A stretch of DNA of 53,290 nt, filler included, from Jimgerdemannia flammicorona (lineage: Eukaryota), in assembly GCA_003990765.1 (NCBI GenBank). It is 3 parts of 3 records of this genome, joined end to end, with 100 filler letters (N's around TTAATTAATTAA, not from the genome) between each part and the next. Parts side by side here need not be neighbours in the genome. Positions count along the whole stretch, not along the records: positions 1 to 17,699 come from RBNJ01002446.1; positions 17,800 to 35,495 come from RBNJ01002447.1; positions 35,596 to 53,290 come from RBNJ01002448.1. One strand, 5' to 3'. The position numbers and the translations under genes are program-made. Of this stretch, positions 11,837 to 52,914 are shown in pieces. How positions within the stretch are numbered: the first letter of the stretch is position 1; each line of letters begins with the position of its first letter. The notes below the pieces were generated by a model. It was given only the letters and a program-made list of their open reading frames with translations. It made no database searches and was not told where the DNA came from.

Positions 11837-14800
11837 GGTACTTCTTGAGTCAGTTTTGGTAGATGATAGTATGGATGATTGTGCCTGAGAGTTTTCATAG
11901 CCAAAAAGTGGTCTCTTTAATATCTTGCACAAGGTAAGGTCCTTCCTACTTAGGCTTCAGTTTTCATGGTTATGAAGCTTCTACTATATTCTGATATATC
12001 AGGACCTTGTCTCCTATCTTGATAATCTTCAAGGGCTTGTGAATCTTTTCTGCATTATTCCACTATAGTGCCTGGACCTTGGTTATGTAATCCTTGATCT
12101 TCTTCCTGATTTGATATAGTCTCTATATTTCTCTATCCATATGTTTCCATACAGTATCTCTATTGGATGATAGGGTTTATTAAGAACTTTCTTTTCTAAA
12201 CAGTATTTCCCAAGAGGTGAAATGGGTGCTTTGTGATTGAATATCCTGGAGAGCAGATAATGCTATTGGCAGATAGTGATCCCAGTTTTCATAGTTATTG
12301 CAGATCTTGATAATAATATTCTTGAGGGTCTTATTAGTCCTTTTTACCTGTCCATTTTCTTAAGGATAGTATGCTGTGGTCTGAATGTACTGGATCTTGT
12401 ACTTCTTATAAAGAACCTTAAAGAACTGGTTCATGAATTCTGTTCCTCTGTCTGGGTTACTTGTGTTGGGGTCTTGAACTGACAGATAACTTCTTTGTAA
12501 AAGCAATCAGCAATTGACTGTGCATTGGTTTCCTTGAGAGGTCCTGCCTCTATCCATTTTGTGAAAAGGTCTATGATGACAATGATGTATTGGTTGCCAG
12601 TCAAAGTCAAGGGTAGAGGGCCAATCACATCTATTGAAATGTGGGCAAATGGTACTAGTTCTATGTATACTGATCCTGGGGCTTGATTTCATTGATCTTG
12701 TTTCTATTTCTGATATTTGTCACAGGTCTTGACAAATTGTCTGATATCTTTCTCCATTCCTGGTCACCATATTGTTCTTCTTGCTTTATCATATATATTC
12801 ATTCCTCCTAGATAGCTAAGTTTATATACTGATTTTATTGCTTGCTTCTTCTTATGTTCTGATATAACTAGTAGCTTTTCTTTCTTCAGTATTTCTCCAT
12901 CAGTTTAGAATTATTTCCATGTTCTATTGATAATTGTTTGTGTCCATTCTTCCAGATATTGGGGCATCTTTTGCTGTCTCAGATAGGTGACAATTCTGTG
13001 GTAGAGCTCTTTATTCATAATTGATTTGCTGGTTGGGAGTCCTTTGGGGGGTCTGTGAGAGGACATCTGTGTTGGCATTGGTTTTTCCTGAGTGGTGCAT
13101 GATTGTTACATCATATACTTGCAACTTCATGATCTATCTGACATAGATTTCTTTGGGTTACCCAGTGATCAGTAGCCAAGTGAGGGCTGAGTGATCTGTC
13201 TGAATGGTGAAGTGTCTTCTGATGAGATAGTAGTGGAACTTCTCTATAGCCCAGATGACTGCAAGACATTCCAACTTATAGGATTCATACTCTTTTTCAG
13301 CTCCTTAGGTTCCTCAGCTGAGATATGTGATGACATACTCCACCTTGTCTTTCTTTTGAGCTGAGACTACTCCTAGTTCTTGGGCACTTATATCTGTCTG
13401 CAGGATGAATTCTTGAGTCCAATTGGGTCTTCTGAGGAGGGTGCCTGAGTCAGTCTGACCTTAAGCTCATCAAATTCTTTTTGTTGTCTGCCAGTCTATT
13501 GGAACTTAGTATTCTTCTTGTTGAGTTCATAGATTGGGCCTGCAATGTTAGAGAATCTCCTGATAAATCAGTGGTAGTATGAGGTGAGCCCCATGAAGGC
13601 TTGGGCTTTAGTAACTGTAGTGGGCCTTGTGTATGCTGCTACTGCTTGTATCTTGAGAGGGTCAGTGTATGTTCTATCTCAGTTAATAATATGGCCAAGA
13701 TAGGAGATCTTGATTTCCAGGAATTTGCATTTCTTGGGATTGATGTACAGGCCATCCTTTCTCAGCTTTTCCATTATCTGCTGGATGTACTGTGGATGTT
13801 CCTCTGGTGTCTGGCTGTAGATAATTACATCATCCATATAAACCATCTTCCATCTTCTTATGTCATTGTAGAAGATTTTGTTCATCATTCACTAGAAACT
13901 TCCTGGTGTATTGCACATTCGAAATGGCATTTGCAAGTAGATATAGGTTCCATCTAGAGTGATGAAGGCTGATTTCTCACATACTGTTTCTGTGAGTCCG
14001 ATTTGGTGGAATCCTGAGTATAGATCCAAGGTACTATAGTACTGTACTTTGTCTCCCAGAGTTATAAGGATATAACTGATGAGGGGCAGTGATTGGCAAT
14101 CCTTCTTAGTGACATTGTTGAGTTTTCTGTAATCAATACAGAGTCTTGGAGTAAATTCTCCAGACTTGCTTCCTTTCTTTGGGGCTAGTACAACTGGTAA
14201 AGACCAGGGGCTGCTGGCTTTCTTGATGATACCAGCTTCTTCCATCTGCTTGATTTCTTCTCTAAGCCACTCTTGGTAGGCTGGCACGATAGGTCTTGTC
14301 TTTTGATAAATTGGTTCAGTATCTCCAGTATCTATATCATGATAGTAGTATGGAGTCTTTTCTTTGATATCCTTGAAGAGCATAGTGAGGACATCCTCAA
14401 ATTCATAGAGTATTTTCTTGAGCTCTGTCTTGAGTTGGAATTCATTTCTAATAGTATAGCTGCACTTATTTGTAGATTCCTTCTTCTTGTACCCTAGTTT
14501 GATAATCTTGATACTGATGAATACTCCACTTTCTGTGGATTCAAATCCTTTCTTTCCTCTCTCTGTTTTCTCTAGCTTCTTGACTTCTATGATCTTTAGT
14601 TGTAGGATCAAAAAGATCAGTATCTGTATCAACCAGTCCTTTTTCTTGACTGGAAATGGTATTGTAGAATTATGGTTCCTAGCAATGAGTAGGATTTCTC
14701 CAGTATAATCTGAATTGATGACTTCTCCTTTAATTGTATCTTCGCTCTTGGCCAGGCTGCATCTTGTCTTCAGGATCCTGATATGATCCTTTGGAATTGT

Positions 14801-15291
14801 CATCTCTAGGTCAGTTGCAAGTAGAGTAGTTGTCTGAGGTTTGAGTATAGTTTCCTCCACTGTAGTGATATCCATTCCAGCTGCATTTTCTGACTTAAAT
14901 TCTGGTAGGACTGTATCAGGATGAATTTTCTGAATCTTGATCTTGATTTCTTCTTCATTATCACTGTCTTTGAGGAGAGCTGGTGGTTCATCATCCCCTT
15001 CTTCTTTCATTTTCTTTTCTTCTCTTGCCTGTTTCTTGAGGGCCTTCTCTCTTCTTTGGTAGTAGATCTTCTTAATTTTGCCAGTGCACTGGTAAAACTT
15101 GTTGACATGCTCCATATATTACATTTGGATCCCATGGGGGCAGACTTCCTGTAGTGCATATCCTTCCATAATCTTCTTGCACCAGTCTTCTTTACTCATC
15201 CATCCGATTTTCTTCTTCTTTTTCTGAGTTGTCACCATATAGGCTTCCTCTTGTTCACTCTCTTCTTTCTCCATCTCAGACAGGACTCCTT
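11825..15291 (-). pseudogene. pol: pol of Gypsy B (Cys/His module, dUTPase, RT, RNase H, integrase)
   Basis: Motifs SPWSLPVVLAPKK, RLCIDYRKLN, LDLYSGFHQI, MPF, YMDD and YLGH; interrupted by stops. Confidence 0.9.
14534..14947 (-). pseudogene. Trimeric dUTPase domain in Gypsy B pol
   Basis: All five dUTPase motifs in degraded form: AAGMDI, TRCSLA, GEVINSDYTGEI, KDWLIQ, RGKKGFEST. Confidence 0.9.
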
Positions 15292-17699
15292 GAGAGTACT
15301 GAAGGAGAGGTGGAGAGGTCTGTGGAGTGAGGAGGAAGGGGGTGCAGATGAGGAGATGATTGGAGATACATTAGAGGAGTGGGACCTGCCACAGGTAGAG
15401 GGCCTTGGAGACTTGATACTACCAGTCTGAGAGGAGGAGGTCCAGAGAGTCCTGGTGGCAACTAAGCTTGGGACAGCACCAGGAGTGGATGGGTTACCTT
15501 GGGACTTTTGGAAGAAGATGGTGAAGGTCCCTGGAGTGTTAGGAGAGATGGCAGCCCTCTGTGACCAAGTTCTTCTGAATGGGGAGTGGGTTGGAGAGCA
15601 GAACTTAGGGTTGGTGGCCTTGTTGTATAAAGAAAAAGAGAGGAGGGAGGATTGGAGGAGCTGGAGGCTGATCATGCTTCTGGATATAGACAGAAAGATG
15701 GTGACTAAGGTGATTGTTATAAGGCTACAGAAGGTTGCCCAACAAGTGCTGGGTGAGGAGCAGTGGGGCTTTGTTAGAGGCAGGCTAATCAGAGATGGGA
15801 CAGCCTGAGTTCATAGCATCATTGAAGGAGCCAGAGCTTGTGGATTGGATGGGAGACTAGTCTTTCTGGACCAGGAGAAGGCCTATGATCGCATTCAGCA
15901 GGTGTGGCTGGACAAGGTGCTAGATAGAATCAGTATTCCTCTATGATTTTGAGCTTCTATGTTGAATCTGTTAGAGGGCAGTAGGGCAGCTCTGATGTGT
16001 AATGGTCACCAGGGTTTGGCATTTCCCTTGGGGAGAGGAGTTCCTCAGGAAGACCCACTGTCACCTATTCTTTATGCCCATTAATTGGAACCTTTGATAG
16101 ATAGGATTTAATGGAAGGTAGTAGGACTCTCTATATATGGGGTGGTGTAGAAGGTGGGAGCCTTTGCCAATGACATAGTAGTTGGACTTGGCTCAGTAGT
16201 GGATGTTGAGGTACTTAAGGAGACAGTGGAATGGTATGAGGCACATTCTGGGGTAAAGCTCAACTGGTATAAGTGTGAGACAATGGTGCTGGAGAATAGG
16301 CTAGTGGGAGGGGACATCATTGGAACAATTGTCCCTACAGGAGAAGTAGTATAGTATCTGGGCATCTTCCTTTCTGTATATGGATCTGTCTTACCACAGG
16401 TGTGGTGGGAGAGGAGGGTGGCACTTTGGAGGGGGGCTCTTAGAGGTTGGAGAGGTCACCCTATCTCCCTAGCGGACCGGGTGTCAATTCTAAATATCTA
16501 CTGGTTCCCCAAGCTATGGCATGTTGCTTATCACTTAGACTTTCTAGCTTGGGTGGTGAAGAGACTGATAAAACAGACTAGAGATTGGATTTGGGCAGAG
16601 AGGTGGTCTCAGATCAGTTGGGATACTCTTGCAATGCTGATGGTTAGGAGAGGGCTAGGCTTAGTGGATGTTCCTAAGAGGCTATACTGCCTGTGAGCTT
16701 GGTGGTTGAAAAGGACTGTTGAACTGCAGGGTGGGAGTTGGGTACCACTGATGCAGAAGGTGTAGGAGATGAGATTCTCTCTTTGTGGGTCATCAGGAGA
16801 TTTGCTATCTCTGGTGGGCCTGAATGGAAGCTAATGGCTATGGTATAAGAGCTTCTGGTAAGGAGTGGTGGATGGAGTATACTGTATTGGCCTGCACTGG
16901 TGGAGCAATGAAGGAGAGATGCTGTGGGGGCCAGCTATGTGGCAATAAGACAGACTGCTTATGGGGGGTGTTCTACTTGCTGAGTTTGATACTGGTGATG
17001 GAGTAGAGTATCAGTGAGAACTTGGTCAGGATCTTTGGCCAAGTAGTTGGTAGGCAGTGAGGATTGGTGAGAAGTGAGACTAGGCAGGAGTCTGGTCATA
17101 AGAGTGCTGAGGTATAGAGGTAGCTTTCTCCAAAGTTCTGGGTGATATAGTAATGGATACTATAGAGGAATGTTATGTTGAATTTCTATACTGGCCATCT
17201 GGTGGATGGTGGCTGATTGGATTGTGAGGAGTGTTATAATGTAGGGCAGGTTGGGGGATTTGTGCAGACACCAGAACATTGGCTGGGAGAGTGTGAGGTT
17301 CTGGGGGACTTTTGGATAGCAGTAGGAGACTGGCTGGGTGTGAAGAAGAGACCAGATGGGGAGTGAGACCACTGGAAGGATTTGAAATCTAGGCTAGTGA
17401 GTGGTGTGGACAATGGATGGCTCACTGTAGGGTGGTTTTTAGTAGTATGGGTAGGGCTGGCTGGACATTGGCTCTTTGTGTTTAAGGAGGGGTGACAGAT
17501 GGATTTACAGGAGAAGTTGTTAAGGTGGGAGGGGTTGATAGGAGATCTGCTAACAGGGTGGTGGGTTGGTTGGGGTCCCCAGGGTAGGTGATGGCACTGT
17601 CTGGTGGAAGAGATCTGTGAGCAGAGTGGAGGGTGGGTAGTGATGGTAAATGGCATAGCAGTCTTTCATTGAGAGAGTATAGGGAGAGGGGGCCCCTAG
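15292..17699 (+). mobile_element. 5'-truncated LINE, subfamily II (RT and zinc finger), inserted in Gypsy B; runs to the contig end
   Basis: APGVDGLPWDFW, WRLIMLLDIDRK, FVRGRLIRD, LDQEKAYD, FAND. Collinear with 21465-23873. Confidence 0.92.
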
Positions 17700-17799
17700 N
17701 NNNNNNNNNNNNNNNNNNNNNNNNNNNNNNNNNNNNNNNNNNNTTAATTAATTAANNNNNNNNNNNNNNNNNNNNNNNNNNNNNNNNNNNNNNNNNNNN
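17700..17799. other. Artificial contig spacer N44-TTAATTAATTAA-N44
   Basis: Exactly 100 nt, with stop codons in all six frames; identical to 35496-35595. Confidence 0.98.
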
Positions 17800-18081
17800 T
17801 AGGAAATTTCATAACAGGGTTAGAAGTGGGACCTAACAGAGAGTAGATTTACTTAAGAGTGGTTTGTGGGTTATTAAATAGATTTATTCATTATTCATGA
17901 TATGGCTATACTAGGAGTAGTTGTATGAAAGAATATTGTGGAGAAGTGTTCAGGAATGTTCTTGTGTATTTGAGTCTGTGTAAGTTGCTGGAGTAGTAGT
18001 TATGGGTCTAGAGTGAGGGCTCGATAGATAGCTATCTGTTACTATATAGATATATTTTATTCTGATGAAGGTGTATCTCCT

Positions 18082-21000
18082 CACCCCCACCTTTCTCCTG
18101 TATAATTCATGTTACACCAACTTCAAGTAATAGTTTTTGATATAACTCAGAGAAAAGTTACTATAAAAATGTCATTGAGCAAGAGTTCCAATGGACATAC
18201 TGGATTGGGTGGACCTGGGGCTTTCAGCTAGCAGCAGGTAGAGAGAGGTTATGGACTGGGGATGGGGGTTTTTGGAGGGTCGAAGAATGGGAAAGGCTCT
18301 GGAGAAGGACTGGTGTCCAGTGGGACTAGGGGAGGACCTGATCTCTCCAGCTTTACAGACAAGGTAAAGACAAGTGGATGGCCAGCTGGAATCAAAGCTG
18401 GTGCTGCTGAAGAGAAGGGCAAAATGAGCATTGGGCAGAGGAGTAGCTTTCAGAAGGGGGCTGTGGGTGTCAGGACTGGAGGTGTTATAGCTAGGGAAGT
18501 GACTGTTGATAGGAGTATGATGGAGAATCAGAAAAAAAAAAAGAGATGTGATGGCTAATGGCCAGGTGGGGCAGGAGTTCTCAATGTGGAAGAGAGATCT
18601 GGCAGATAGTATAATGGGGCTGGCAGTGGCCCTATTGCTCAAGAAGTTGATCTTAGAGTTTGTAGCTACCTTGTACTTTCAAAGCTTAGCAGTGATGATG
18701 AGGATGGTCCTGGGGCTTATTTCAAAGCAGGTGGCTGGGGCAGCCTCAGTGAAGTTCCTGAAGAGACTGGAGGGGGTTGAGGTGGGCTTTGAGGAGGTGG
18801 GTCCACTGGATGAGGCTCTGAAGACCAGAGTAGTAGTTGGGGAAGTGGTGGTCCCCATAGTGTGGTGCTTGAGGTAGGACCCCAGGGTAGTGTAGTTACT
18901 GGTAAGAAGAGTGCCTACAGTAATAAAGGAGGAGACTAGGAGGAGGGTAGAGGAGGTGATAGTAGAGTATAGTGACATGGTGGACATTGGCTTCCAGATG
19001 TGAGAGAGGACCACCTTCAGAACAAGTAATGTCAATGTTAGGATTCAGCTGGTGGGGAGAGAGGCCACAGGGAAGACAAGTGACTGGCCCTTGGTGCTGA
19101 TGTGGGGGGTGTTTGTCTGTAAGATATCAAGGGTAAAAGGGAGTAAAGAGGAGGAGAAGAACTTGTTGGAGGCTCTGGAGGAGTTGAGTGGTACAGTAGA
19201 GAGGAGGATGAAAGCCTGGAAGCTGTATGAAGAGTTGACACATCTGGAGATTGTGGATGGGAAATATATCTGCACTGATAGGAGGCAGTGGGAGAGGGCT
19301 CAAGGATGCAGAAGACAAAGAGATCTGCTGGCAAGCTTGAATAGAGGGGTGAAGAGAAAGACTGGGAGCTTGGAGAAGTCTGAGGGTATAGAGGCAAGTG
19401 TCTGGACTAGTAAGGAAGGAAGAGATGTGGTGGAGAATCTGGAGGGGGCTGGGAAGACACCATGCACAGACCCTTTTGCAGATGGCACATTTGAAGTCTG
19501 GGAACTAATCTTGGATGATACTCCCCCTCTGATTAGGAGGGGTCTGGCTGCAAGGGGTCAGGTGGCAGAGGATGTACTGATGAAAGGTGCTCAGTAGGTA
19601 TACTTTGGGGTTCCTGACATGATGAAAGGTGGACAGGTGGTGGCAGTCAGTGAGGATGAGTTAGCAGATATTCTGGAGGAGGGGTGAGATGAGACTACCA
19701 GTATAGGAGCTGACACCATGATGCTTGATGTGAGAAGGCCAGGGATACCAAGAGGGAAGGAGGTGGGAAATCTGCTGTAAATAAGCAAGGTGATAGATAA
19801 CCTCGTAGCTGAGGAGTTGGGGGAGGTAGACTTACATATGATACCTGAGGAGTATTGAGTGCAGATTCTGCAAGATGATGGGGTGGTGGGGGCACTGAAG
19901 GTGGAGATACTTGTAATTTTCATAGAGAAGGAGGGGTATGAGATTGACAAGGCAAGGGAGGTAGAGTTAGCAGTCATTGCTGGTGAGTGGGCTGCCTACT
20001 GTTGAGCAGAGTGTTATGGGTTGCAACTCTGGCAGGAGATATGCCTGGAATATCATGAGAACTTTGAGGAGAAAGAGGATAGGGCAATGACTGAACTTCT
20101 GGCTGGATTGGAGGCACAGGCAGATAAAGAGAAGGCACTAGCTGCAGAACATAACTTGAACTTGGTATAGGAGGAGTTGAATGCAGATTTATAGAGAGTA
20201 CAATTGATAAACAACATTATTCCTTATAAACAGTACAACTAATATTTTCTCTCTGAATGTAAATGGGTTATGGGGATCTGGGCAGTGTAAGAACATTTTT
20301 ACTTAGCTTAAGAGTTTAGAGGCTGATCTCTTTTTACTGCAAGATGTACAGTGTGAGGGTGAGGAGAATTAGGTAGAGTGGGCTAGAGAATGGGGTGGAG
20401 CTACTGCTTGGACTGGCAAAGTGGTGATTTTGGTGAGAAAGGGTAGAGGAGATTTGGGAGATATCAGGAGCTGGGGTGACCAGTTGGTCTGGAGAGAATA
20501 GTATCAGCCTGGTTGGGAATTAGTAAGGGTTGGCTCTTGCTACTGCCCTGTAGTTAGGGGTGAGAGAATTATGTAGATTAGGGCTCTGCTGGAGGAGAGT
20601 GTTCTCTTGGAGGAAGGAGTAGATGTTTTGGGTGGGAATTTTAATATGGTGAGGGATCTGCAGGTGGATAAAACTGATGGAGGGAGAAATGTGAGTGGGA
20701 GGAGTGGTGGTCTGGATGCATGGGAGGAGGTGGAGAACCTTAGCTCATTAGGAGATATGGGCAGAGCATGGTGGAGTGATACAAGGGTATACACACATTG
20801 GGTGAATGGATTGAATATAAGGATTGACTGGATTCTGACAGCTGAATGCTGGGGAATAGATGTTTGGAAGACTTTAGAGATAGAGTAGTACCTGTGGTCT
20901 GATCACTGGGGGCTATTAGGGCAGAGGCAGTTTGGGGAGAGTGGAAATGGACCCAGACATTGGTGCCTTAACTCCTTCCTGCTATCTGAGAAGATGTTGT

Positions 21001-23951
21001 AGGACCTATGGATGGAGGACATTCAGGCGAAGATAACTCTCTGGATACATGAGGGCTCAGATGTGGGTATCTGTTGGATGAGATTGAAGGAGGCTGCAAG
21101 GGTTTATTAGGGAGGAGCTAATAGGGAGGCTGGGCAGCAGTGGAGGAAGCAAGTGAGGTTTGCTTCTAATAGGCTGTTGCAATTACAGTTAGATTGGGCT
21201 GATTTGCTTTCTTCTACAGGAGTGGAGGATTGGAGGCTAGAATGAGTGAAATTGGAGATAGTGGAGCTACAACAGATGTTGCAAGTAGAGGAGGAGATTC
21301 ATATGAAAGAAATGGTGGCCAGGCTTAGATGGCAGAGACTTGAGGAGAGAGAGTGGCCCACTAGGTATCTGACTAGGCTCCTCAAGGCTAAGAGGGTGCA
21401 ATATCAATGGAATAGGGTCCTTGATACAGAAGGGGAAATGGTGCATAGTATACAACAGATCCTGGGGATATTGAAGGAGAGATGGCAGGGTCTGTAGAGT
21501 AAGGAGGAAGGGGATGCAGATGAAGAGGCAATTGAAGATATACTGGAGGAGTGGAAACTACTGCAAGTAGAAGAACTTGATGACTTGATTCTACCAGTTC
21601 AAGAGGAGGAGATCTAGGGAGTCCTTGTGGCAACTAAGCTTGGGACAGCATCTGGAGAGGATGGACTACCTTGGGACTTTTGGAAGAAGATGGCAAAGGT
21701 CCCTAGAGTGTTAGGGGAAATGGCAGCCCTCTGTAACCATGTAATTCTGAGTGGTACATGGGTTGGTAAACAGGACTTAGGGTTGGTGGCCTTATTGTAT
21801 AAAGATAAAGGAAGAAGGGAGAACTAGAAGAACTGAAGACTGATCATACTTCTGGATATGGACAGGAAGATGGTGACTAAGGTGATTGTGGTAAGATTAC
21901 AAAAAGTTGCCCAACAGGTGCTGGGTGAGGAGCAGAGGGGCTTTGTTGGGGGCAGGCTTATCAGAGATAGTACTGCCTGAGTGCATGATATCATTGAAGG
22001 GGTGCAGGCCTGTGGACTAGATGGAAGACTGGTCTTTCTGGACCAGGAGAAGGCTTATGACCATATTTGGTAAGTATGGCTGGGCAAGGTGCTGGATAGA
22101 ATTAGTGTCCCTCCATGATTTTGAGCTTCTATATTGAATTTGTTAGAGGGCAGTAGGGCTGCACTGATGTGTAATGGTCATCAGGGTCTGGCATTTTTCT
22201 TGGATCAAGGAGTTCCTCAGGGAGATCTACTATCTTCTATTCTGTATACCCTTTCATTGGAATCATTAATGGATAGGATTCACTGGATGGTAGCAGAGCT
22301 CTCTGTGTATGGTGTGGTGTGGAAGGTGGGGGCTTTTGTTGACAATATGGTAGTTGGACTTGGCTCTGTGGCTGACATTAATGCACTTAAGGAGATGGTG
22401 GACTGGTATGAGGCACACTCTGGGATGAAACTCAATTGGCATAAGTATGAAACAATGGTGTTGGGGAATGGGCTAGTAGGAGGGAACATCATTGGAACAA
22501 TTGTCTCTACAGGAGAGGTGGTGCAGTATCTGGGCATCTTCCTTTCTGTATATGGATCTGTCTTATCATGAGTGTGGTGAGAGAGGAGGGTGGCCATTTG
22601 GGAGGAGGCTCTTAGAGGATGGAGAGGTCACTATATTTCTCTGGCAGGGTGGGTGTTAATTCTGAATATCTACTGGTTCCCCAAGCTATGGTATGTGGCC
22701 TATCACTTGGACTTCTCAGCTTGGGTGGTGAAGAGGCTGATGAAATTGACTAGAGATTGGATTTGGGCAGAGAGGAGGTCCCAGATCAGATGGGACACTC
22801 TTACATCACTGGTGGGTAGGGGAGGACTAGGCCTTGTGGACTTCCCTAAGAGGCTGTACTGTCTGTGAGCTTGGTGGTTGAAAAGGGCTGTAGAACTACA
22901 GGGAGGGGGCTGGGTACTACTGATGCAGAAGGTGTGGGAGATGAGATTCTCCCCTTGAGGGTCTTTAGGAGATTTGCTCTCTCTGGTGGATCTAAATAAG
23001 AGCTGACAGCTGTGGTACAAGGGCTTCTGGTGGAGGGTGGTGGATAGAGTATACCAGATAGGCCTACACTGGTGAGGCGATGAGAGGGAGGTGCAGTGGG
23101 GTCTGGCTATGTGGCGATGGAACAGATTGCTTCTGGGGGGTGTTCTACTTACTGAGTTCGATATTGATGATGGGGTGGAATGTCAGCAGGGACTTGGCCA
23201 GAATCTTTGGCCCAGTAGTTAGCAGAGAGTGGAGATTGGTGAGGAGTGGGACTGGGCAGGAGTCTGGTTGTGGAGTGTGGAGGTGTAGTAGTGGCTTCTG
23301 CCCAAGTTCTGAGTAGTGTGGTGGTAGATACTATGAAAGAATATTATGTTGAATTTCCATGCTGGACATCTGGTAGATGGCAGCCAATTAGATTGTAAGG
23401 AATGTTATAATATAAAGCAAGTGGGGGAAGTTGTACAGACATCAAAATATTGGTTAGAAGAGTGTGAGGTTCTGGGGGACTTTTGGATAGTAGTAGGAGA
23501 CTGGCTGGGTGTGGGGAGGAGGCCAGATAGAGAGAGAGGTCACTGGGAGGATTTGAAATCTCAGTTAGTGGAGGGTGTGGGCAATAGTTGACTCACTGTA
23601 GGGTGGGCTTTAGCAGTGTAGGTGGGGCTGGCTGGATACTGGCTCTTTGTTTTTGAGGAGAAGTGATAGATGGGTATATAGAAGAAGTTATTGAAGTGGG
23701 AGGTATTGATGGGGGATTTGCTGACTGGGTGGTGGGTTGGCTGGAGTCCTCAGGGTGAGAGACATTGCTGTCTGGTAGAAGAGATATGTATGAGGAGTAG
23801 TGGGAGGGTAGAGATAGTATTGGATAAAGTGGTCTTTCATCAAAAAGAAGTGGAGGGGGGGGGGACCCCCTAGAGAGATCGGTTAGGAGTGGGCTATGTG
23901 TATTATTAGAGGATAGACAGATATATTAATAAAGGAAGGAGTTCAAGTGAC

Positions 23952-24027: not shown

Positions 24028-24031
<4 letters not shown>

Positions 24032-25289: not shown

Positions 25290-25302
25290 TTAGCAATGTA
25301 TA

Positions 25303-35446: not shown

Positions 35447-35495
35447 TGTCGGATTTTTTTATGGGACTCCATTTTTTACACCTCCAGCTGCAAAA

Positions 35496-35595: not shown

Positions 35596-35695
35596 TTTTA
35601 TAGTCTCTTGGACTCCTTTATTACAGCTATCGAATATAATTACAGAGAACTACAATACACTACCAATCCTAAAACATATACTGAAGTAGAGTCCT

Positions 35696-39338: not shown

Positions 39339-39344
39339 GAAAAA

Positions 39345-41220: not shown

Positions 41221-41404
41221 ACCACGGAAACTTGACGGATTTTGAAGAAACTTGCTGTGAATTGTTGCCAGACTTCTGCCGCACCTTGCACACCAGTATG
41301 GACGAAATGAAAACTTGAAAACGCGTTGCTTTTTGCAAAAGGTTACCTGTGTGGCTTAGCTCTCTCTGAATGGTTTGAGTAAAGGAAGTCTCTCCAAGTT
41401 CCCC

Positions 41405-42096
41405 AGATAGCTTAGTAGTTATAGTATAGTTATATTAGCCTTATATGATGTAACTGTGAACTGACTCAGTAGTCAGACAATCCCTTGATATATCAGATCA
41501 AACTTGTACTATGTGACTGTATTCTGACTCAGCAAGGCACTAAGTACTATATCTATATTCAGTATAGCTCAGATAGCCTCTCACTAGTATAAATACCCCC
41601 TCTCTCAGACCTCAGAATCTCAGACTTAAATAGACTTGAACATATGAACAATTCAAATACAACTCTTGAGCACTTCCCTATAATATCCTTTCACACAACT
41701 ACTCCTAGTATAGCAATATCATAAATAGCAAATAAACTTATTTAATAAACTATAAACCACTCTTAAGTAAATCCACTCCCTGTTAGGTCCCACTCCTAAC
41801 CCCATTACAAAATTTCCTAATTGGGTATTGTCTGCAGTGATATGCTGATTCAACTAAACTGGCTTTAGTTTTTTAAACTTCCTGAAATTTAGAAAATCCT
41901 GAATATCCAGAACTAGTCCAAAAAGGAACTTTGGTTGAGATATCAACCCAATCTTGAAATCAATAAGTATAGAGAATGTACTCCATATGAAATTGATCTT
42001 AACCTTAAGAAAAATGATTTTTCAGAATATCCAGAACTTCCAGAAAACTCTTCCAGAACTACATAATGGTTATCCTAAAAAAGCAACCCTCTTACA
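41405..42096 (+). repeat. 5' LTR of Gypsy C (3' 692 bp only; truncated by LINE-4)
   Basis: Aligns with 49984-50674. TATAAATA at 41588-41595, AATAAA at about 41731 and 41744, ends CTTACA before the PBS. Confidence 0.92.
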
Positions 42097-42099
42097 ACT

Positions 42100-42111: not shown

Positions 42112-44122
42112 TTTACAATTCAATTTCACTTCAAGATGCTTCCTCACCCCACTACAAACCCCTCTGAGAATTTCTATAAGTTGGTATAAAGCCCAACCTC
42201 TAAACTGGAATTCATCCCAAACCATCTGACAATCTGGAGAGAATTGAACCTGATGTATAAGGACAATTTGACCTCTGCACCTGTAACAAGTGGGACAAAT
42301 GTCATTCAAAGAAAGAAGTACTCCATTAAATCAGCAAATAGATGAAACCCTATTTACTAAACTCCTTGCTCTACACCCAGTAAGTCAAGACAAAGAAGGT
42401 CTTATAGAAGCCTTCTTTACTCTTCTCAATAAGAGTTTTGTTAGCTCCACAAATCTAAGCAATCTAGAATAACTAGCAGCAGTCTTTCTAGCCTTAGTTC
42501 CTTATAAAGCCCAAGCCTCTGTAGCCAAGTGGCTCAACTCTACTGACTTCTACTGAACAAGAACTAAGACCACCTTATACTACTACTTCCAGAATTGTAA
42601 GGCTCACCATATTCTTAAGGAAGAAGCAAGGGAAACTCTCCATCAATAACCTGACTCTAAACCTGAAGCAGGCCCAGCTATAGCTCTACCTGAACCTGAA
42701 ACCAACACTGAACCAGAACTTGACTTTGAATTAAGTCCATCTGAAATCAGATATATAACTGATCCTATCTACTTTGATGTTGAGCAAACCCAATTACATG
42801 GGGACCAAACTGAAGAGGAGAAGGAGTATCTCAGTGAATTTGATTCTGGATATACCATAGAAGGAGATGCACCTCCATCAGAACAGAATACACCTACACA
42901 GCAACAGACTGCTATCTATCAAGCCCTTACTTCAGACCTACAACTACTACTCCAGCAACTTACACAAACTCAAAGAACACCCTCACACTCTGTACCAGTA
43001 CCTTAAGTAGTACTAGTAACACTACTACCAGCAGTCCAACTGCCTTCAGTAAACAATATGGCAAACCAACAGATTCTAGACCTCACAGCCCAGATAGCCA
43101 TAATGGCAGCAACCATCACTACCTTAGCCGAACAGACCCAACCAACTAAAAATCTAAGTCTACCTACCTTCAATAGTACTGCACAAGAAGTTCAAAGCTT
43201 TATCAGTATAGTTGATACCAACTTCGAAGCCAACCAATGGACCAACAAGTGAGTTGCTGACTGCCTTCTAACAAACAATCAAGACTATACTCTAGAACAA
43301 CTCTTTGCTACTACTACAGCCTATGTCTACTGAGTTGTTACATTCTTCCAAGAACCTGCTGAAGAATGGTGGCAAACCCTTTCTGGAAAATCTCTCACAT
43401 GGGACACCCAACCTGCAGTAGTTGCCCAGAATGCAGAAAATAATGCCCCAGAATATGGAGCCCATCCTGCAGCCCCTGGACTCAAACAACTCATGATTGC
43501 TCAATACTATAACAAAACCATAATTGCTGAATCTTGAGTTAAACTCTGCAACCTCAAATTTGATGTACATGGTAAGGAGGAATTCAAAACCTTCTGTACA
43601 AAACTCGAGTCACTCCTGAACACTGTTGGCCTAGGATATATTGCCAATGATAAAGTGCAAAATAGTACAAAAGCAGACTATTTATTCAATACACTACCTG
43701 AATGGCTTATTAGAAAAATCTGAGAACAAGGCTGCCCATTTGGTTGTAATTACTAACAATAGTGTCTAGCAAGAATCAAGATCATAGTCAAGTGAATTCT
43801 AACAGCTGGACTAATTCTGCCCCAAAGACAATTCAACAACAAGGAAAAGACTTAGACTAAGAAAGAAGAACCCAAGCATGAAACATCCTGAGCTCCCTCT
43901 ACATCTACCTCATGGACCTCTAGAAATCATAAACCCACCCAGCTGAGTACCTTCAAGAAACTCACTGAAGGAGAAAGAAATAAACTTTGAAGAAGTGGAG
44001 TATACTTCTATTGCCAAAAGACAGGACACATGGCCAGTGCCTGCCCTAACCAAAAACCTCAAACAGTAATACAAACAACTGTCACTATTCTGCACCACCT
44101 CAATAACCTAACTACCAGAATA

Positions 44123-44530
44123 CTGAACTTTGTGAAGTTAAGGCAAACTGCCAAGGCCCCAACCAAAGGAAGTCAAAAAGCAGCAGGATATAACCTGTAT
44201 ACAGCTAAAGAAGCTATAGTCTCCAACCAAGAAGTCAAGCAAGTCTATACAGGAATCAGTATCCAAATCTCTGAAGGATATATTGGAAGGATATGCTATC
44301 ACAGCAGCCTAGCATTGAAAGAACACTCAGTAGAAGGAGGAGTCATTGACAAAGATTACACAGGCAAAATTATTATCCTTATCTGAAACTATAGTTGGAC
44401 ACTCTTCAAGATCTCTATTGGTTTCTATATCACACAGATCCTATTTGAGAAAATTGAGTCAACTCTGACAGTCAAGGAAGTCCCTGAACTACTGTCCACC
44501 ATCTAAGGATCCAAAGGATTTAGCTCATCA
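44123..44530 (+). pseudogene. dUTPase domain between the Gag zinc knuckle and the protease in Gypsy C
   Basis: AAGYNL, YHSSLA, GGVIDKDYTGKI, ITQI, *GSKGFSSS. Confidence 0.9.
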
Positions 44531-47500
44531 AACAAAGCTCCAGCCCAACCTACTATGAGCAAAGAAGAACAATTCTATAAGAAAATCGAAGATAGATATG
44601 TACCAAGTGGCTGATATTCCCATGGTATTAGAATATACTCTTTCTGAATGATCAATGATTGCTTCTTTTGTGTCAATGAACTGGCTCAAAGGAGAACCAA
44701 TAGATGGAAAGCTTCAAGTACTGAAATCACTACTATCAGATCAGAAAAACTGCTTCCACTTCAAGCTTTTATCAATCAAGCACTCATCAAGATCATGATA
44801 GACAGCAGTGCCTCAGGCAACTTCATCAATGAAGAAACAGCTAACAGACTCAAGGTCTTCACTTCTCTAGTACAACAGACTCAAGCAGTTGCCACAGCTG
44901 ATGGAACCTTGTATATTATTAGCAAGGAAGTCTGAAATCTACCCTTCCAAATTGGTGACTACTGAGTATATATTACTCTCCAGATTATACCACTTTCTTA
45001 CAATGAAATCATCCTTAGAACCCTATGATTAAAATAAGAGAACCCCATGATCAATTGGATAAACTATTCACTAACTATCAAGAAAGGATGCCATAACTTC
45101 AAACTGCAAGGTAAAAGGGACCTACTCAGTTCTAGTGACTCTGGACCAAAGATTACTTATATCAATAAGCTACAGCTCAAGAAATTGGCCAAGAAATGTC
45201 CTCTCTTTGCCATCCCCATCTGCCCATCCAAAGGAGAAGCTGAGAACTCTGAAGAAGACTTTTTCAAAGTTAACAGCCATTGAGATATATTTCCAAAGAA
45301 ACTCCTGAAAGACCTACCACCTAAATGAGCAGTAGACTATGTCATCAAGACCATCCCAGATGCCAAGCCAGCCTTCAAATCAATCTACCACATGTCTCTA
45401 AGAGAAATTGATGTACTCAAGAAGAAAATCAACAAACTCCTAGAACAAGGATTCATCAGACCCAGTGTATCACCCTATGGTGCACCAGTCCTCTTTGTTG
45501 TCAAGAAAGGAAGAGACCTGCAAATATATATTGATTACTAAGATCTCAATGAACAAACCATCAAGAACTGCTGCCCACTGCCTAGAATTGATGAAATATT
45601 CAATAGACTCACCAACCTGCAATTCATGAGCTCTTTTGATCTGCAAAATGACTATTGGCAAATTACTATGAAAGAAGAAGACATCTACAAAACAGCCTTC
45701 CGAACTCACAATGGACACTTTGAGTTCCTGGTTATGCCTTTTGGCTTAACTAATATCCCAGCAACCTTCTAGATACTGATGAATACCATTCTATACCCAT
45801 ATCTTGACAAATTTGTTGTTCTCTACATTGATGACATCCTAGTCTTCAGTAAAACCCTGGAGGAACATCTTGAATATCTTGAATTAGTACTACTGAAACT
45901 CCAAGAAAACTGACTCTTTGCAAAACTTAGCAAATGCAAATTTCTCCTGAAGGAAATTCAATTCCTTAGACATATTATCATACCAAATGAAATCAAAGTG
46001 GACCCCAGCAAAATCTCCACAATCAAGGATTGGTCCAGACCCAAGAAGCTGAAAGACCTCTAGTCATTCCTGGGATTAGCAAACTATTACAGATGATTTG
46101 TTGCCAACTTTGCCAAAATCACTATTACTCTTACCCAAATAACTAAGTACAATAAGAAAGGAGAACAGCCCTGGACCATGAAAAAAGAGAAAGACTTCAA
46201 CAATCTTATGAATTGGGGGCCTGAACAAGATACAGCCTTTCAAGTACTAAAAGATGCCTTGATAATCACTTCAGTACTTCAAGCAGCAAATCCTGCCCTA
46301 CCATATGAAGTTACTACTGATGTCTCTGATCTAGCTCTTGGAGCAGTGCTCATGCAAGAAGGACACCTAGTTGCCTATCACTCCTGTAAGTTCAATGATG
46401 CTGAAATCAACTATGCAACTTACAAGAAAGAAATGCTAGCCATTGTAGACACTCTGATCAAATAGCAATTATATTTAGAAGAAGTACACTTCACTGTATT
46501 GATTGACCACAAGTTATTAGTCAACATCAAGACCCAGGCTACTCTTTCTCAAAAGCAAGCCAGATGGATGAAAGTTCTCACCAATTTTGACTATGAAATC
46601 CAGTATCAGTCTGACAAGGAAAATATTGTTGCTGATGCAATCTCCAGACTACTAATCAAAGAAGTTATCCAAACCCTTACCTTGGTTATCAACACTATTA
46701 TGGAACAAATTATTGCAGCATGTGCTGATAATAAGGAAGCTCAAGTACTCTGAGAAATCCTGAGCAGTGATGATACCAATAAGTACACCCAGTACCATCA
46801 ATACTAACTGAAGGATAATGCTATCTACTATAAGGACAGATTGTATGTTCCAAACAACCAAGACCTCTAAAGGACTATCCTATTTGAATGTCATGATACC
46901 CCTATAGCTGGACATTTAGGATTTGACAAATGCTATGAAGTTATCTCCTAGAACTTCTATTGGTCCTGTATGGCAGATCAGCTCAAAACCTACATCACTT
47001 CCTGTGATACCTGCCAATACAACATGTCCTCAACACTAGCAAAACCTGGCCTACTCCACCCTATCCCAGTACTATCTGCTAATTGGGAACAAATCTCGAT
47101 GGATTTCATTGTACAACTACCCTGAACCAAGAATGGGAAGAATACAATTGTTGTTTTTGTGGACTATCTCAGTAAGCAAGCCCACTTTGTACCAACTACT
47201 ACTACCACAATAGCACCAGACATAGCCACACTCTTGTTTGACAATATCTTCCACTATTATGGTCTTCCTAAGATCATTGTCAGTGATCAAGACCCAAAAT
47301 TCACCAGCCATTTTTGGAAAGCCCTCCATGTACACCTGAGAACAAAACTTGTACTATCTATAGCCTTTTACCCCAAAACTGATAGCCAAACTGAAAGAAT
47401 GAACCAAACTCTGGAACAAATGCTAAGGAATTATGTTTTCTATAAACAAGATGATTGACATGAATACCTCACCATAGTTGAGTTTACCTACAACAACAGC

Positions 47501-47994: not shown

Positions 47995-48162
47995 GAAGAA
48001 TATGAAGTTGAACAAATCCTCAACAAATGCAGCCACAAGAACTATCCAGAATATCTTGTTAAATGGAAAGGCTATCTGATTCATAATGTAACATGGGAAC
48101 CTAAAACCAATCTACAGAATGCCACTGACTTAGTTCAGGAATATAATTTCTTAAACAACTAA
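47995..48162 (+). pseudogene. Chromodomain at the integrase C-terminus
   Basis: EEYEVEQILN...EYLVKWKGY...TWEPKTNL. Confidence 0.92.
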
Positions 48163-48575
48163 AACTATTCACTTAGTACCTATCAGTATATACTATATAT
48201 TATCCTCCTGAATATTATAATTATTATGAACAAAATCAAGAACTCAGCAAAGATAAGACAAAGAATATTGACCCTCTAGAAAAATAACAAAACTGAAAGC
48301 AAGCCTATTCTCTCCATATTACTTGTGGGAAACAAGATATAGACATTTAAGAAGATTTCTTAAAGGAAATTCTCCAGCAGTGAATGACATCAGAATCACT
48401 TCCAGTACATGGTATTGAACACATAACCCTTTAATATATAAATCCAATGTATTAGACAACTTTACTACAAGTATGCCACTTTCTGAAAAAATAGACTTCA
48501 TTGGACTTTTGACCTCCCAAATGATATAACAATACTAGAATAAATTAGAAGGCCCCGATGAGGACATCAAAAGCT

Positions 48576-48588
48576 AAGAAGGGGAGAG
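48576..48588 (+). promoter_or_regulatory. Polypurine tract of Gypsy C
   Basis: AAGAAGGGGAGAG, then T, then TGTAAG. Confidence 0.8.
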
Positions 48589-48589
48589 T

Positions 48590-50674
48590 TGTAAGTGCAC
48601 AACCTCTAAGCCACTGAAATCACATATTACCCTCTGAATAAGCCACTGAAATCATATGCGACCTCTGAACAAATCTGGAAATCATTTGCATGATCACAAA
48701 GCTGAGTCAAACTGAAGTCACAGTACACAAAGCTGAGTCAATATGAAGTCATGGAATACAAGATTTATACAAACAGAATCTTACCAATCAGGATCAAATG
48801 CATATATACTGAGCACTGAGACATGTTGAAACAGAGAACTAAAAAAAACAACAAACACAACTTCTAAATATACACAAACATGACCACCAAGATCTATAAT
48901 CACATCTGTGCTAATATTTGGAATGCTATTGTCAACCGAGTCACACTCTCTCTGTCCCTCATGAATATCTATAGCCTAGCACTCTTTTACTTCATGGAAG
49001 CCCAATGGAATGCCCTGAATATACTTAGTGAAGTCTACCAAATTGGACAAATCTCAAGCTACTACCAGATTGGCTGCCTCCTAGAAGACATGGTCAAATA
49101 CCACTATAATATAGACATTACCTAGATGTCCCAGCACCAGAAGCTCATCATCCGTAAACATTGAGAACTCTTCTATGAGTTCAGCACTGTTATTCCCCAC
49201 CTCTGAGTTACCACTAGTAAAATGGTTGCTACTCTGTCTTATGGCCAAATCAATGACATGATACAAGAACTCAACCACAAGTATCTCAAGTATGTTTAGA
49301 CCACAGACAGAATCTTTCTGCACCCTGATGACTATATTCTGTGAATACCCTAAGTCAGATATGCTATAAAGGATATCTATGATATAATCCAATTTGATGA
49401 AGATGAAGCAGAAGATAATGATCCCTCTGATGCCAATATGACCTTAAGCCAAGGATCTCTGCCAACTCTGATCACTCCACCAATACTGCTGATGAACTTA
49501 TAACAGTTCATAACCACCTATGAGACCTATTGGGACAATGACTACTGACACAAATACCAACCCACATTCACTCTCAATTACTTTAACTATAATGAAGAGA
49601 CAGGAGAACACAATCTGTATTTTCAGACAACCCTCAAGACTGAACCAACCACTCCACCACCTGAGTATGAACAACATGAACCACAGCCACCAGCTTACTA
49701 TAACCCCACAACTCATAGTGCCATAACCTATAGAAGGTATACAGACAGCAAATCTGATGAAAGTGAAGATGATGTACCACTCCTTCATCCACCAACTCCA
49801 TACCCAACATATGAGACAGACAATACTATCTTATGGGACAATGATGAAGTCCCAATATATTACTACCTCAGTGAACAAGGAGAATTAATCTGCAAACCAC
49901 TCTTCCTAGATGACTACTTTATCAAAGATGATGTCATTGATGATAATGTCATCAAAGACTACCCAGACAGCATCTAAATCTATAGATAGCTTAATAGTCA
50001 TAATATAGTTAGATTAGCCTTGTATGATGTGACTGTGAACTAACTTAGCAGTCAGATGATCCCTTGACATGTCAGATCACACTTGTATTATGTGACTGCA
50101 TTCTGACTCAGCAAGACACTAAGTGCTATATCCATATTTAGTATAGCTCAGATAGCCTCTTACTAGTATAAATACTCCCTCCCTCAGACCTCAGAATCTT
50201 AGACTTAAACAGACTTGAACACTTGAACAATCCAAACACAACTTCTGAGCACTTTCCCACAATATCTCTTCACACAACTACTTCTAGTATAGCAATATCA
50301 TGAATATCGAATAAACCTATTTAATAAACCATAAACCATGCTTAAGTAAATCTATTCCCTGTTAGGTCCCACTCCTAACCCCATCATGAAATTTCCTAAT
50401 TGGAGATTATCTGCAGTGATATGCCAATTCAACTAAGCTAGCCTTAGTTTCTTGAACTTTCTGAAATATGGAAAATCCTGAATATTCAGAACTAGTCCAA
50501 AAAGGGACTTTGGTTGAGACATCAACCCAATCTTGAAATCAATAAGCATAGAGGATGCACTCCATATGAAATTGATCTTAACCTTAAGAAAATGGTCTTC
50601 CAGAATATCCAGAACTTCCAGAAACCCCTTCCAGAACTATGTAATGATTACCCTAAAAAAGCAACCCTCTTATA
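48590..50674 (+). repeat. 3' LTR of Gypsy C (inferred length 2,085 bp)
   Basis: Starts TGTAAG directly after the PPT and ends CTTATA (CTTACA in the 5' copy), giving a 6-bp terminal inverted repeat. Only the last 691 bp can be confirmed against the truncated 5' LTR. Confidence 0.75.
48880..49977 (+). pseudogene. Decayed 366-codon accessory ORF inside the LTR U3, function unknown
   Basis: One frame from ATG 48880 (context ACAAACATG) to TAA 49977, with 8 internal stops and no frameshift needed. Contains an acidic run (FDEDEAEDND) and a Pro/Tyr-rich region (PPPEY, QPPAYY, HPPTPYPTY). Confidence 0.65.
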
Positions 50675-52914
50675 TAGACCCCTTTGCTATAGAAGAAGCA
50701 GGAGAACTACAAGTTAGTATAAAGGACATGATCATCTCTATAATCTACTAAATCTAAGTACTTCAAGTATAACTAGAATAGTAGAAAACAAGAACTGTGA
50801 GTACATCATATTCTGCTATAGCACCAGTCTGTTTCAAGCCACTCAAGCCAGATATCTTTGATAGTCACTAAGGAGGACTATCTATAGAAGTATAGATCTT
50901 CTAATTAGATCAATACTTTGAGCTTACAAGAATGAAAGAAGATATGCAAGTCCAATTTGCTGCCACACTTCTCCAAGGAAATACAGCCATTTGGTAGTGC
51001 AATTACATTATAACTATATCTATATACTTATATATATAAAACAAAGATTGAGAAGCTTTCAAGAGAGCCCTTTATAGGTAGTTCAAGCCAGCTAATGCTA
51101 CCAAGCTAGCCAAAGATAAGCTAGCAAACATCAAGTAACTCAAGTCTATATAAAGCTATAATATATAATTCCTGTTAATCCTACTTGAACTACCAGTGAT
51201 AGCTGAGGATAAAAAGATAGATCACTATATCTGAGGTCTGAAGAGAAATACATGAGTCATGGTCAAGCTAGAAGAGCCACAAAGCCTTGATAAAGCTATG
51301 AGAATTGCTGATAAGTTCAATATTATTATCTTTAGCAACTATTTCAAACCAGAACACTGCAAGAAGAACTACTTTGAGAACTACCACAGAAACCAATCAA
51401 GGACTTAGACACTATGAATAAAAAGAACACCAAGCTCACCTCTGAAGAAAAGGATTGTCTGAAGAAATCTGGAGTCTGTTTTTTCTATTGCCAAACAGAA
51501 CATATTACAACCAAATATTTTAAGAAGACTAGTACACCTTCTAGACCAGTCATCATATTTTCCAAAGATATACCTATCAACCCTACTATCAGTCAATCTG
51601 AGCTCAAGATCAAGAAGCTTCACCCAAAGGCCCAGGCCCCTCAATATCAAACAGAAGAAGCCATTGGTCTTGACTTATACTCTGTCAAACAAGTCACTCT
51701 TCCAGCCAAGAGCTGAACTTTAGTGCCTACTGGAATTGCAGTCCAATATTCTGAAGGACATTATACCAGAATTGCACTATAATCAGGACTCAGTGTCAAA
51801 TATAGGTACTGACCCAGACTTTCAAGAACAAGTTCAAGTTCTGCTTATCAACCAGAAGGATCAAGACTATACAGTCAAGAAAGGAGACTGAGTCATACAA
51901 ATGATCTTAGGAAAAACCAGTAAACTCAAGATTACCAAAGTCCAAGAACTCTCTGAAACCAAATGAGACCAAAAAGGTTTTGGTAGCACCAATTAAGCAG
52001 TAAGTCTTACTGAAAATCAAGCTCAAGCTATGCTCATTTTCAAAGGCCTAGTCAAAGAAAAAGACATTCAAGTGCTTATAGACAGTAGAGCTATAGAGAA
52101 CTTCATCAATCAGAATCTCATTAAAAGCCTCAAGATCCTCACCAAGCCTGTATCCAAGAATAACAATATAGTTACTGCAGATAGTACACTACACCTCATC
52201 AAGTCAATTGCTGCCAAACTATCTATCAAGATCCAGAAATATTGGGAATAAGTAGACTTCAAGATTGTACTACTAAGAGATCATGACCTAATTCTAGAAA
52301 AACCCTGGCTTATGAAATACAACCCAGATATCAATTGGTACAAGAATGAAGTCACCTTACTTTAAGGTAGAGCAAACATCACTATCAAGACAGACAAAAC
52401 TATGAGCAAGATCCAGATTATAATACTGTTGGCCATATAGTATAAGAGAGTACTCAAGAAGATAATATATGTCTTTATTATAATAGTCTATCTCAAGAAA
52501 TAAGACAAGAGACTATTAGTCAATAAAAGTATCAAGTTACTACTAGAAGAATTCAAGGATGTCTTTCCAGATAAGCTATCTGGTCTACTGCCTATACAAG
52601 AAGTTGATCATGAAATCAGACTGACCCCAGGAGCTATATGACCCAAAAATATATATACTGCATATCACCACTCGAAATTGAAGCAGTCAAGAAGAAACTA
52701 GAAGAACTACTTACATGAGGAGCCATTCAGTCAAGCAAGAAGAAGAATGGTATCCTGTGAATATATATAGACTACTGTATACTCAATAAGCTGCTACCCT
52801 TGATTGATCAAATCTTTAATACTCTTAAGAATGCCAAGTACTTCACTAAGTTAGACCTCATATCAGAATCTTTAGTATAACTAAAAAAGAATACCTCAAA
52901 CATATTCAAACAGT
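50675..52914 (+). mobile_element. Ty3/Gypsy element D fragment (gag-zinc knuckle-dUTPase-protease-start of RT), host of element C
   Basis: Gag KPDIFDS...F*LDQYFEL...FAATLLQGNTAIW*, knuckle GVCFFYCQTEH, dUTPase, protease LIDSRA...LILEKPWL, then EEFKDVFP and a deleted RT start. Confidence 0.88.
51600..51993 (+). pseudogene. dUTPase domain of Gypsy D
   Basis: AIGLDLYS, LVPTGIAV, *SGLS, DPDF, KGD*VIQ, *DQKGFGSTN. Confidence 0.88.

What the first reader, a model, noticed from the sequence alone, without database searches (positions are those of the whole stretch)
14534..51993. Three distinct Gypsy lineages all carry dUTPase, in two different polyprotein positions
Seen: A/B have protease-dUTPase-RT (14534-14947; split in A). 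C has knuckle-dUTPase-small module-protease (44123-44530). D has knuckle-dUTPase-protease (51600-51993). Known: dUTPase is common in betaretroviruses, non-primate lentiviruses and ERV-L but only sporadic in LTR retrotransposons; the gag-dUTPase-protease order mirrors betaretroviruses. Inference: finding it in every pol-bearing Gypsy here suggests repeated capture or exchange, driven by a uracil-rich nucleotide pool or a uracil-based host defence.
Basis: partly seen in the sequence, partly recalled or inferred. Interest (0 to 1): 0.72.

Follow-up and report, generated by a model that had tools for sequence, protein, structure and literature searches.

The report
Fungal Gypsy retrotransposons carrying dUTPase
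Every Gypsy-type jumping-gene family sampled in this fungal genome carries its own uracil-clearing enzyme, in one of two positions; such elements are already known from other fungi, and what is unusual here is only how completely they dominate.

Summary
Dead elements A/B, C and D carry dUTPase, after the protease (A/B) or before it (C, D). B's protease is not in the window. In a 517-kb sample of the genome, 13 of 14 Gypsy protease loci had an adjacent dUTPase; the 14th belongs to a family that has one. All 9 families distinguished carry it, roughly 6,000 copies. A Copia element with a long open frame lacks it. Both layouts, and independent capture, are published for Postia (2010).

Repeated capture is likely but unproven. 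The dUTPase trees differ from the RT and protease trees, are unstable, and do not reject congruence (p-AU 0.06-0.32). The best sign of exchange is a 35-residue Cys/His module, 71% identical across a divide where the proteases share 23%.

A special uracil defence is not supported. The host has intact DUT1, UNG-like loci, a TDG-like hit and thymidylate synthase, and no APOBEC hit. Decay is strand-symmetric C-to-T, highest at CpG.

This scan noted the layouts and the module before, on other pieces of this genome.

The parts
854..1030 (+). Element A: decayed aspartic protease, C-terminal part
   Evidence: tblastn 63% to B-family protease; local profile 24 bits; no Pfam hit
1128..1229 (+). Element A: remnant of the Cys/His module Z
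   Evidence: 15.5 bits with a profile built from C-type rows only
1365..1489 (+). Element A: dUTPase, 5' part
   Evidence: 71% to B-family dUTPase
1490..7242 (-). LINE inserted into A's dUTPase; target-site duplication 1477-1489 / 7243-7255
7245..7509 (+). Element A: dUTPase, 3' part
   Evidence: 64% to B-family dUTPase
7797..8316 (+). Element A: decayed reverse transcriptase
13682..14233 (-). Element B: reverse transcriptase
14534..14941 (-). Element B: dUTPase, between protease side and RT
   Evidence: PF00692 E 6e-19
15062..15211 (-). Element B: Cys/His module Z; element cut by a LINE at about 15284, protease not in window
   Evidence: 37 bits with C-type-only profile
41405..42094 (+). Element C: 5' LTR
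   Evidence: 88.7% identical to 49984-50672
44006..44050 (+). Element C: decayed CCHC zinc knuckle
   Evidence: PF00098 E 0.013; intact in other copies
44123..44530 (+). Element C: dUTPase, between knuckle and protease
   Evidence: PF00692 E 1e-23
44552..44707 (+). Element C: Cys/His module Z
   Evidence: homology to B's module
44756..45106 (+). Element C: aspartic protease
   Evidence: PF13975 E 7e-5, PF08284
45449..47581 (+). Element C: RT, RNase H, integrase
48001..48147 (+). Element C: chromodomain
   Evidence: PF00385 E 3e-15
49984..50672 (+). Element C: 3' LTR; element D's leader starts directly after it
50926..51369 (+). Element D: Ty3 capsid
   Evidence: PF19259 E 5e-11
51477..51518 (+). 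Element D: decayed CCHC knuckle
   Evidence: read from the translation; PF00098 in a related D1 copy
51603..51990 (+). Element D: dUTPase, frameshifted
   Evidence: PF00692 E 2e-8 in two frames; 79% to family D2 copy L047
52012..52386 (+). Element D: aspartic protease
   Evidence: PF08284 E 4e-10
52719..52868 (+). Element D: start of RT, followed by LINE sequence

Best explanation
These are ordinary Ty3/Gypsy retrotransposons whose polyprotein includes a trimeric-type dUTPase. Inferred function: the domain is released by the element's protease and packaged in the virus-like particle, where it removes dUTP during reverse transcription, so the cDNA is not uracilated and cut by host uracil-DNA glycosylases. 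The domain was gained long ago, at least twice (once in each main backbone, and probably separately in the D lineage), inherited within lineages and kept under selection. The protease-dUTPase interval has occasionally swapped modules between lineages. A few dUTPase-bearing lineages then expanded to thousands of copies and came to dominate this genome's Gypsy pool. Shown: domain orders, prevalence, motif conservation, host genes, mutation spectrum. Inferred: enzyme activity, packaging, number of captures, the selective reason.
For: Prevalence: 13 of 14 protease loci in 69 stretches (517,414 nt) had an adjacent dUTPase; all 17 RT loci best matched dUTPase-bearing families; the 14th family has one in another copy. 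RT and protease data strongly split B/B2/E from C/F/D1/D2 (six alternative topologies p-AU under 0.05), yet dUTPases are 27-39% identical between lineages regardless of that split, about as far as from host DUT1 (34-42%). None of three trees with non-element dUTPases joined the element families into one clade. Codon-position divergence between subfamilies is 3rd > 1st > 2nd (0.56/0.33/0.19 for B vs B2; 0.51/0.30/0.24 for D1 vs D2). The motif-3 Asp is kept in 28 of 29 D-set, 19 of 19 C and 12 of 15 B copies. The C model folds as a dUTPase (pLDDT about 90 or more over the core; top matches yeast, human and vaccinia dUTPases). Module Z is 71% identical between B and an F-type protein, 60% between B and B2, while B-F proteases share 23% and RTs 44%. 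Host has two UNG-like loci. A processed DUT1 retrocopy shows that host DUT1 mRNA gets reverse-transcribed. The role in non-dividing cells is established for non-primate lentiviruses (PMC4531489, passages).
Against: No AU test rejected congruence. The non-chromovirus protease label is clustered on the dUTPase tree (3 changes against 8.0 shuffled, 0 of 500 shuffles as low), so there is vertical signal. The B/E/C/F clade (96/85) fell apart with other taxa. Family C lacks the basic residue of motif 4 (FCIAQ or FCITQ in 17 of 19 copies), so it may be weak or inactive. A Copia element with a 1,522-codon open frame has no dUTPase, so the enzyme is not required for LTR retrotransposition in this host. 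The Z comparison rests on 35 residues, and the 71% figure uses P0031, a protein from an unnamed source; the decayed genome copy gives 61%.
Confidence: 0.6

Rival explanations
1. Host-driven sweep: an unusually uracil-rich nucleotide pool or a uracil-based defence in this fungus forced every Gypsy lineage to capture or exchange a dUTPase.
For: 9 of 9 families across both backbones carry it, against 'several' Postia families among more than 150 in 25 other fungi (PMC2864245 section 5). Two UNG-like loci. Module Z shows exchange.
Against: DUT1 is intact with three introns and canonical motifs; thymidylate synthase present; no APOBEC_N match (absence not proven). C-to-T equals G-to-A on the sense strand (0.057/0.054, 0.080/0.075, 0.095/0.085), unlike deamination of single-stranded cDNA. 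Copia lacks the domain. The dUTPases are not recent host captures (34-42% to host). A dUTPase cannot undo cytosine deamination (established biochemistry, recalled).
Confidence: 0.15
2. One ancient capture, inherited vertically by all these lineages, with later relocation of the domain across the protease and many losses elsewhere.
For: Monophyly of all element dUTPases is not rejected (p-AU 0.32). Module Z or its shorter core sits beside dUTPase on both backbones. Vertical clustering.
Against: It needs a domain move plus many losses, since most fungal Gypsy families lack the domain. D1/D2 dUTPases lack Z, have shorter branches and never joined the B/E/C/F rows in trees with outgroups. Z identity between B and F exceeds that between B and B2.
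Confidence: 0.17
3. The domain is kept mainly for a non-catalytic role (a trimeric scaffold, or a partner of the neighbouring zinc-finger modules), at least in family C.
For: Family C lacks the motif-4 basic residue. Cys/His modules flank the domain in six of nine families. BIV keeps a dUTPase-related peptide without activity (PMC4531489, passages).
Against: B, D1 and E keep all five motifs, which is hard to explain without catalysis.
Confidence: 0.08

Closest known systems
PosPlaTy3-3, -4 and -5 of Postia placenta; elements of Phanerochaete chrysosporium and Tuber (Tmt1), as described in PMC2864245 (passages and section 5 read; supplements not read)
   Same: Fungal Gypsy elements with dUTPase at the amino terminus of Pol (as C, D) or between protease and RT (as A/B), in different families of one genome; the authors inferred independent acquisition.
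   Different: There it is several families among many. Here 9 of 9 families distinguished and thousands of copies, on both main backbones, in a Mucoromycotina-like host. The carboxy-terminal position was not seen here. No Cys/His module is mentioned in the text read.
Juno, Vesta and TelKA elements of bdelloid rotifers (PMC5408684, passages read)
   Same: Most lineages of one genome (3 of 4) carry dUTPase; Juno has an extra zinc knuckle next to it.
   Different: Animal host, a single position (protease-dUTPase-RT), low copy number.
Betaretroviral NC-dUTPase (MMTV, M-PMV; PMC4531489, passages read)
   Same: Order knuckle-dUTPase-protease, as in C and D.
   Different: Betaretroviral dUTPase is a trans-frame product of a gag-pro frameshift; here knuckle, dUTPase and protease lie in one frame. 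The sequences are closer to eukaryotic and large-DNA-virus dUTPases. The likeness is convergent.
Entomophthora muscae (10.1101/2023.09.13.557621, one passage read)
   Same: A transposon-inflated early-diverging fungus in which PF00692 is enriched together with retroviral protease and knuckle families.
   Different: The passage does not describe element structure or count families.

Membership tests
Ty3/Gypsy LTR retrotransposons | Pol order protease-RT-RNase H-integrase | tested here: met
   Complete in C; protease-RT in B, D1 and E family copies
Ty3/Gypsy LTR retrotransposons | Flanking LTRs | tested here: met
   C: 690-nt direct repeats, 88.7%. Not established for A, B or D.
Ty3/Gypsy LTR retrotransposons | Gag capsid and CCHC knuckle | tested here: met
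   PF19259 in D, PF00098 weak in C; both in a D1 copy
Chromoviruses | Chromodomain after integrase | tested here: inconclusive
   Met for C. Not scanned for D1, D2, F, G, which are placed on C's side by trees only; no named reference elements were in the trees.
Trimeric dUTPases (PF00692) | Profile score over the curated cut-off | tested here: met
Trimeric dUTPases (PF00692) | Five conserved motifs including the motif-3 aspartate | tested here: inconclusive
   Met in B, D1 and E family copies; family C lacks the motif-4 basic residue. Motif numbering and residue roles are partly recalled.
Trimeric dUTPases (PF00692) | dUTPase fold | tested here: met
   Model of a C-family copy matches human, yeast and vaccinia dUTPase, rmsd 1.5-2.0
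Trimeric dUTPases (PF00692) | dUTP hydrolysis and trimer formation | not testable with these tools
   needs an assay
Betaretroviruses | dUTPase made by gag-pro frameshift | tested here: not met
   Knuckle, dUTPase, protease and RT lie in one frame in C and D1 copies
Betaretroviruses | dUTPase sequence of retroviral affinity | tested here: not met
   Retroviral chains rank at the bottom of the 60 shown (49-57 bits against 84-124 for the best). The assignment of 2d4l, 1dut and 1duc to M-PMV, FIV and EIAV is recalled.
Betaretroviruses | env gene | tested here: inconclusive
   C's extra downstream frame has no Pfam match in two copies

The most novel reading that the evidence does not exclude
In this fungal lineage dUTPase is a near-obligatory Gypsy gene. 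It spread across the deepest split of the Gypsy tree by recombination between co-resident families in the protease-dUTPase interval, together with or alongside an unnamed zinc-finger module, because Gypsy particles reverse-transcribe in a compartment or life stage that the host's DUT1 does not sanitise while Copia particles do not. This would be a natural system for asking why some retroelements need dUTPase.
Probability: 0.2. Interest if true: 0.65.

Novelty: new member of a known kind. Interest (0 to 1): 0.4.

Why it matters
Why only some retroelements carry dUTPase is an open question; Novikova et al. called its role and origin unclear. A genome where every sampled Gypsy family has it while Copia and LINE elements do not gives an internal control, and extends the trait to an early-diverging fungal group. 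The layouts and the idea of repeated capture are already in print, and all window copies are dead, so the gain is one of scale, not of kind.

Tried and rejected
Loss of host uracil control: rejected. The top host-like dUTPase hit looked damaged but is a processed retrocopy; the real DUT1 is intact; UNG-like loci and thymidylate synthase are present. Deaminase attack on cDNA: no strand bias, no APOBEC_N match. Shared LTR between C and D: rejected; D's leader matches a D2 copy that has no such LTR directly beside it, so C most likely inserted there. A single dUTPase-plus-Z cassette for B, E, C, F: suggested, not reproduced. Mixture-model AU run timed out; all dUTPase trees used LG+G4, which is prone to long-branch attraction. 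Homologue search with a B-family region among long proteins found nothing (weak evidence). Atlas search with module Z gave no usable hit. The Z-only model was too poor to search (pLDDT 59). Cluster look-ups gave no organism names for 20 of 20 proteins, so donors could not be named. Only one Copia family was read in full; other Copia families were not fetched. G_L084 and the window's decayed copies were left out of the AU tests; L021 was dropped from the D set as a C-family copy.
Full report
Setting. The window is a scaffold of three contigs from a 231-Mb, 35,354-contig eukaryotic genome, filled with decayed LINE and Gypsy copies. Its one host gene found a single homologue, in Bifiguratus adelaidae, which suggests a Mucoromycotina-like fungus.

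The observation. All four dUTPases are real. A and B are one family (67-68% DNA identity) with the order protease-Z-dUTPase-RT. A's dUTPase is split by a LINE with a 13-nt target-site duplication. B's protease lies outside the window; the order is confirmed in other copies. C is a full-length 9.3-kb element with LTRs and a chromodomain, in the order knuckle-dUTPase-Z-protease. D is knuckle-dUTPase-protease with no Z.

Genome-wide prevalence. A PF00692 search gave 8,265 first-look candidates, and a Gypsy RT query gave 8,989; these are not copy numbers. I took 69 stretches at regular contig numbers from C100 to C26100 (517,414 nt); smaller contigs were not sampled. They held 14 dUTPase, 14 protease and 17 RT loci. 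Thirteen of 14 protease loci had an adjacent dUTPase; all 14 dUTPase loci adjoined a Gypsy protease or RT; all 17 RT loci best matched dUTPase-bearing families. The 14th protease locus is cut by a LINE, and another copy of its family has a dUTPase. I distinguish nine families by identity: B, B2, E, H (protease first), C, F (dUTPase-Z-protease) and D1, D2, G (dUTPase-protease); 9 of 9 carry the domain. G rests on one decayed copy and H on one partial domain. Scaling 14 per 517 kb gives about 6,300 copies (Poisson range about 3,400-10,500; my arithmetic). The queries came from dUTPase-bearing elements, so very divergent or rare Gypsy families could have been missed. Control: a Copia element with a 1,522-codon open frame has no dUTPase from Gag to RT, and the remaining 208 or so codons leave no room beside RNase H (inference). 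Four Copia fragments and 27 LINE RT loci in the sample had no dUTPase of their own in view.

Elsewhere. A profile of dUTPase plus protease against 1.84 billion proteins returned 43 of the best 150 with retroelement domains, in both orders. Nine of 80 metagenome loci were in retroelement context. None could be named.

Trees. RT and protease separate B/B2/E from C/F/D1/D2; six alternative topologies were rejected in both (p-AU under 0.05). dUTPase identities between lineages are 27-39% and ignore this split. The best dUTPase trees differ from the RT tree: a B/B2/E/C/F clade apart from D (96/85; SH-aLRT 91 with more rows). With other taxa that clade dissolved: B/B2 joined foreign knuckle-dUTPase-protease elements (98/89) and E joined protease-first elements (98/91). 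No AU test on dUTPase rejected congruence (0.06-0.12; 0.195 and 0.32; 0.305 and 0.42), and the backbone label is clustered on the dUTPase tree. So 135 columns cannot settle the number of captures. More than one origin rests on position, on the rarity of the domain in other fungal Gypsy families and on D's separation.

Module Z. A profile built only from dUTPase-Z-protease rows scores B and B2 at 70-71 bits; the best of 1,000 shuffles scored 8. Over 35 residues B matches the F-type protein P0031 at 71% (61% to the decayed genome copy), B2 at 60%, C at 43-46% and E at 15%, the reverse of the backbone. This is the best evidence of exchange between lineages, but the dUTPases did not move with it (B-F 38%, B-B2 56%). 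A shorter CxH-CxxC core occurs in E, H and foreign elements. Zinc binding is inferred from the residues only; Z had no Pfam or Atlas match.

Function. B, D1 and E keep the five motifs; C lacks the motif-4 basic residue. Codon positions indicate purifying selection, weaker than on RT. The fold is that of a trimeric-type dUTPase. Closest solved sequences are eukaryotic or from large DNA viruses, with retroviral ones far down.

Host side. DUT1 is intact; there are two UNG-like loci, a TDG/MUG-like hit (subfamily name recalled), thymidylate synthase and four C5-methyltransferase matches; APOBEC_N found nothing. Among the best-scoring copies (28 D, 19 C, 15 B) C-to-T and G-to-A rates on the sense strand are equal, with CpG (0.22-0.33) above CpA, CpC and CpT. 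That fits methylation-linked or RIP-like decay after integration (inference), which a dUTPase cannot counter. Nucleotide pools cannot be read from sequence, so a high-dUTP stage or compartment remains possible.

Literature. PMC2864245 (passages and section 5) reports dUTPase before, inside and after Pol in Postia families and infers independent capture; its supplements, including the dUTPase tree, were not read. PMC5408684 (passages) reports it in three of four bdelloid lineages. PMC6431247 and PMC2774666 (passages) mention fungal, rotifer and planarian cases. PMC4531489 (passages) covers retroviral function. Eight searches showed no description of near-universal dUTPase among Gypsy families of a Mucoromycota genome; the library lacks most subscription papers, and the Phanerochaete and Tuber papers were seen only as citations. 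This scan already holds 138 dUTPase notes for this genome, including both layouts and module Z.

Verdict. A real feature and a new member of a known kind. The prevalence is striking, repeated capture is likely but unproven, and a special uracil defence is unsupported. Interest 0.4.

Noticed in passing
window 33476-35458 (-): Host gene for a Ser/Thr-rich membrane protein; its only homologue found was a Bifiguratus adelaidae Mid2-domain protein (45%, E 1.5e-50), pointing to a Mucoromycotina-like host.
   Followed up: partly
window about 48235-49950 (+): Decayed extra reading frame between C's chromodomain and 3' LTR; 265-311-codon open stretches in other copies have no Pfam match. Earlier notes of this scan describe such accessory genes.
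   Followed up: partly
L001 (G000:C6287) and L148 (G000:C33350): Intronless retrocopy of host DUT1 that differs from the gene by 12 changes, all C-to-T or G-to-A.
   Followed up: yes
L142:3367-3774: In family E a second beta-rich stretch follows the dUTPase and by eye resembles a degenerate dUTPase-like domain; Pfam gave no second hit.
   Followed up: no
   Followed up: no
window 24028-25290 and 17800-18081: Inverted and partly palindromic fragments of the C-family LTR and leader.
   Followed up: no
window 215-468 and 31473-31727: 255-nt repeat, 77% identical, upstream of element A; possibly an A/B-family LTR remnant.
   Followed up: no
L151: Metagenome element with a further order, protease-RT-dUTPase; 9 of 80 metagenome dUTPase loci lay in retroelement context.
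   Followed up: no
G000:C5369 and C1630: Two intron-split UNG family-1-like loci; C1630 shows a TAG inside two matches, and neither was fetched.
   Followed up: no
window 1490-7242, 15284-17669, 18594-23840, 25730-30925, 35596-41390, 52914-53290: Six related LINE copies, 42-71% to one another's RT; they break elements A, B and D.
   Followed up: partly
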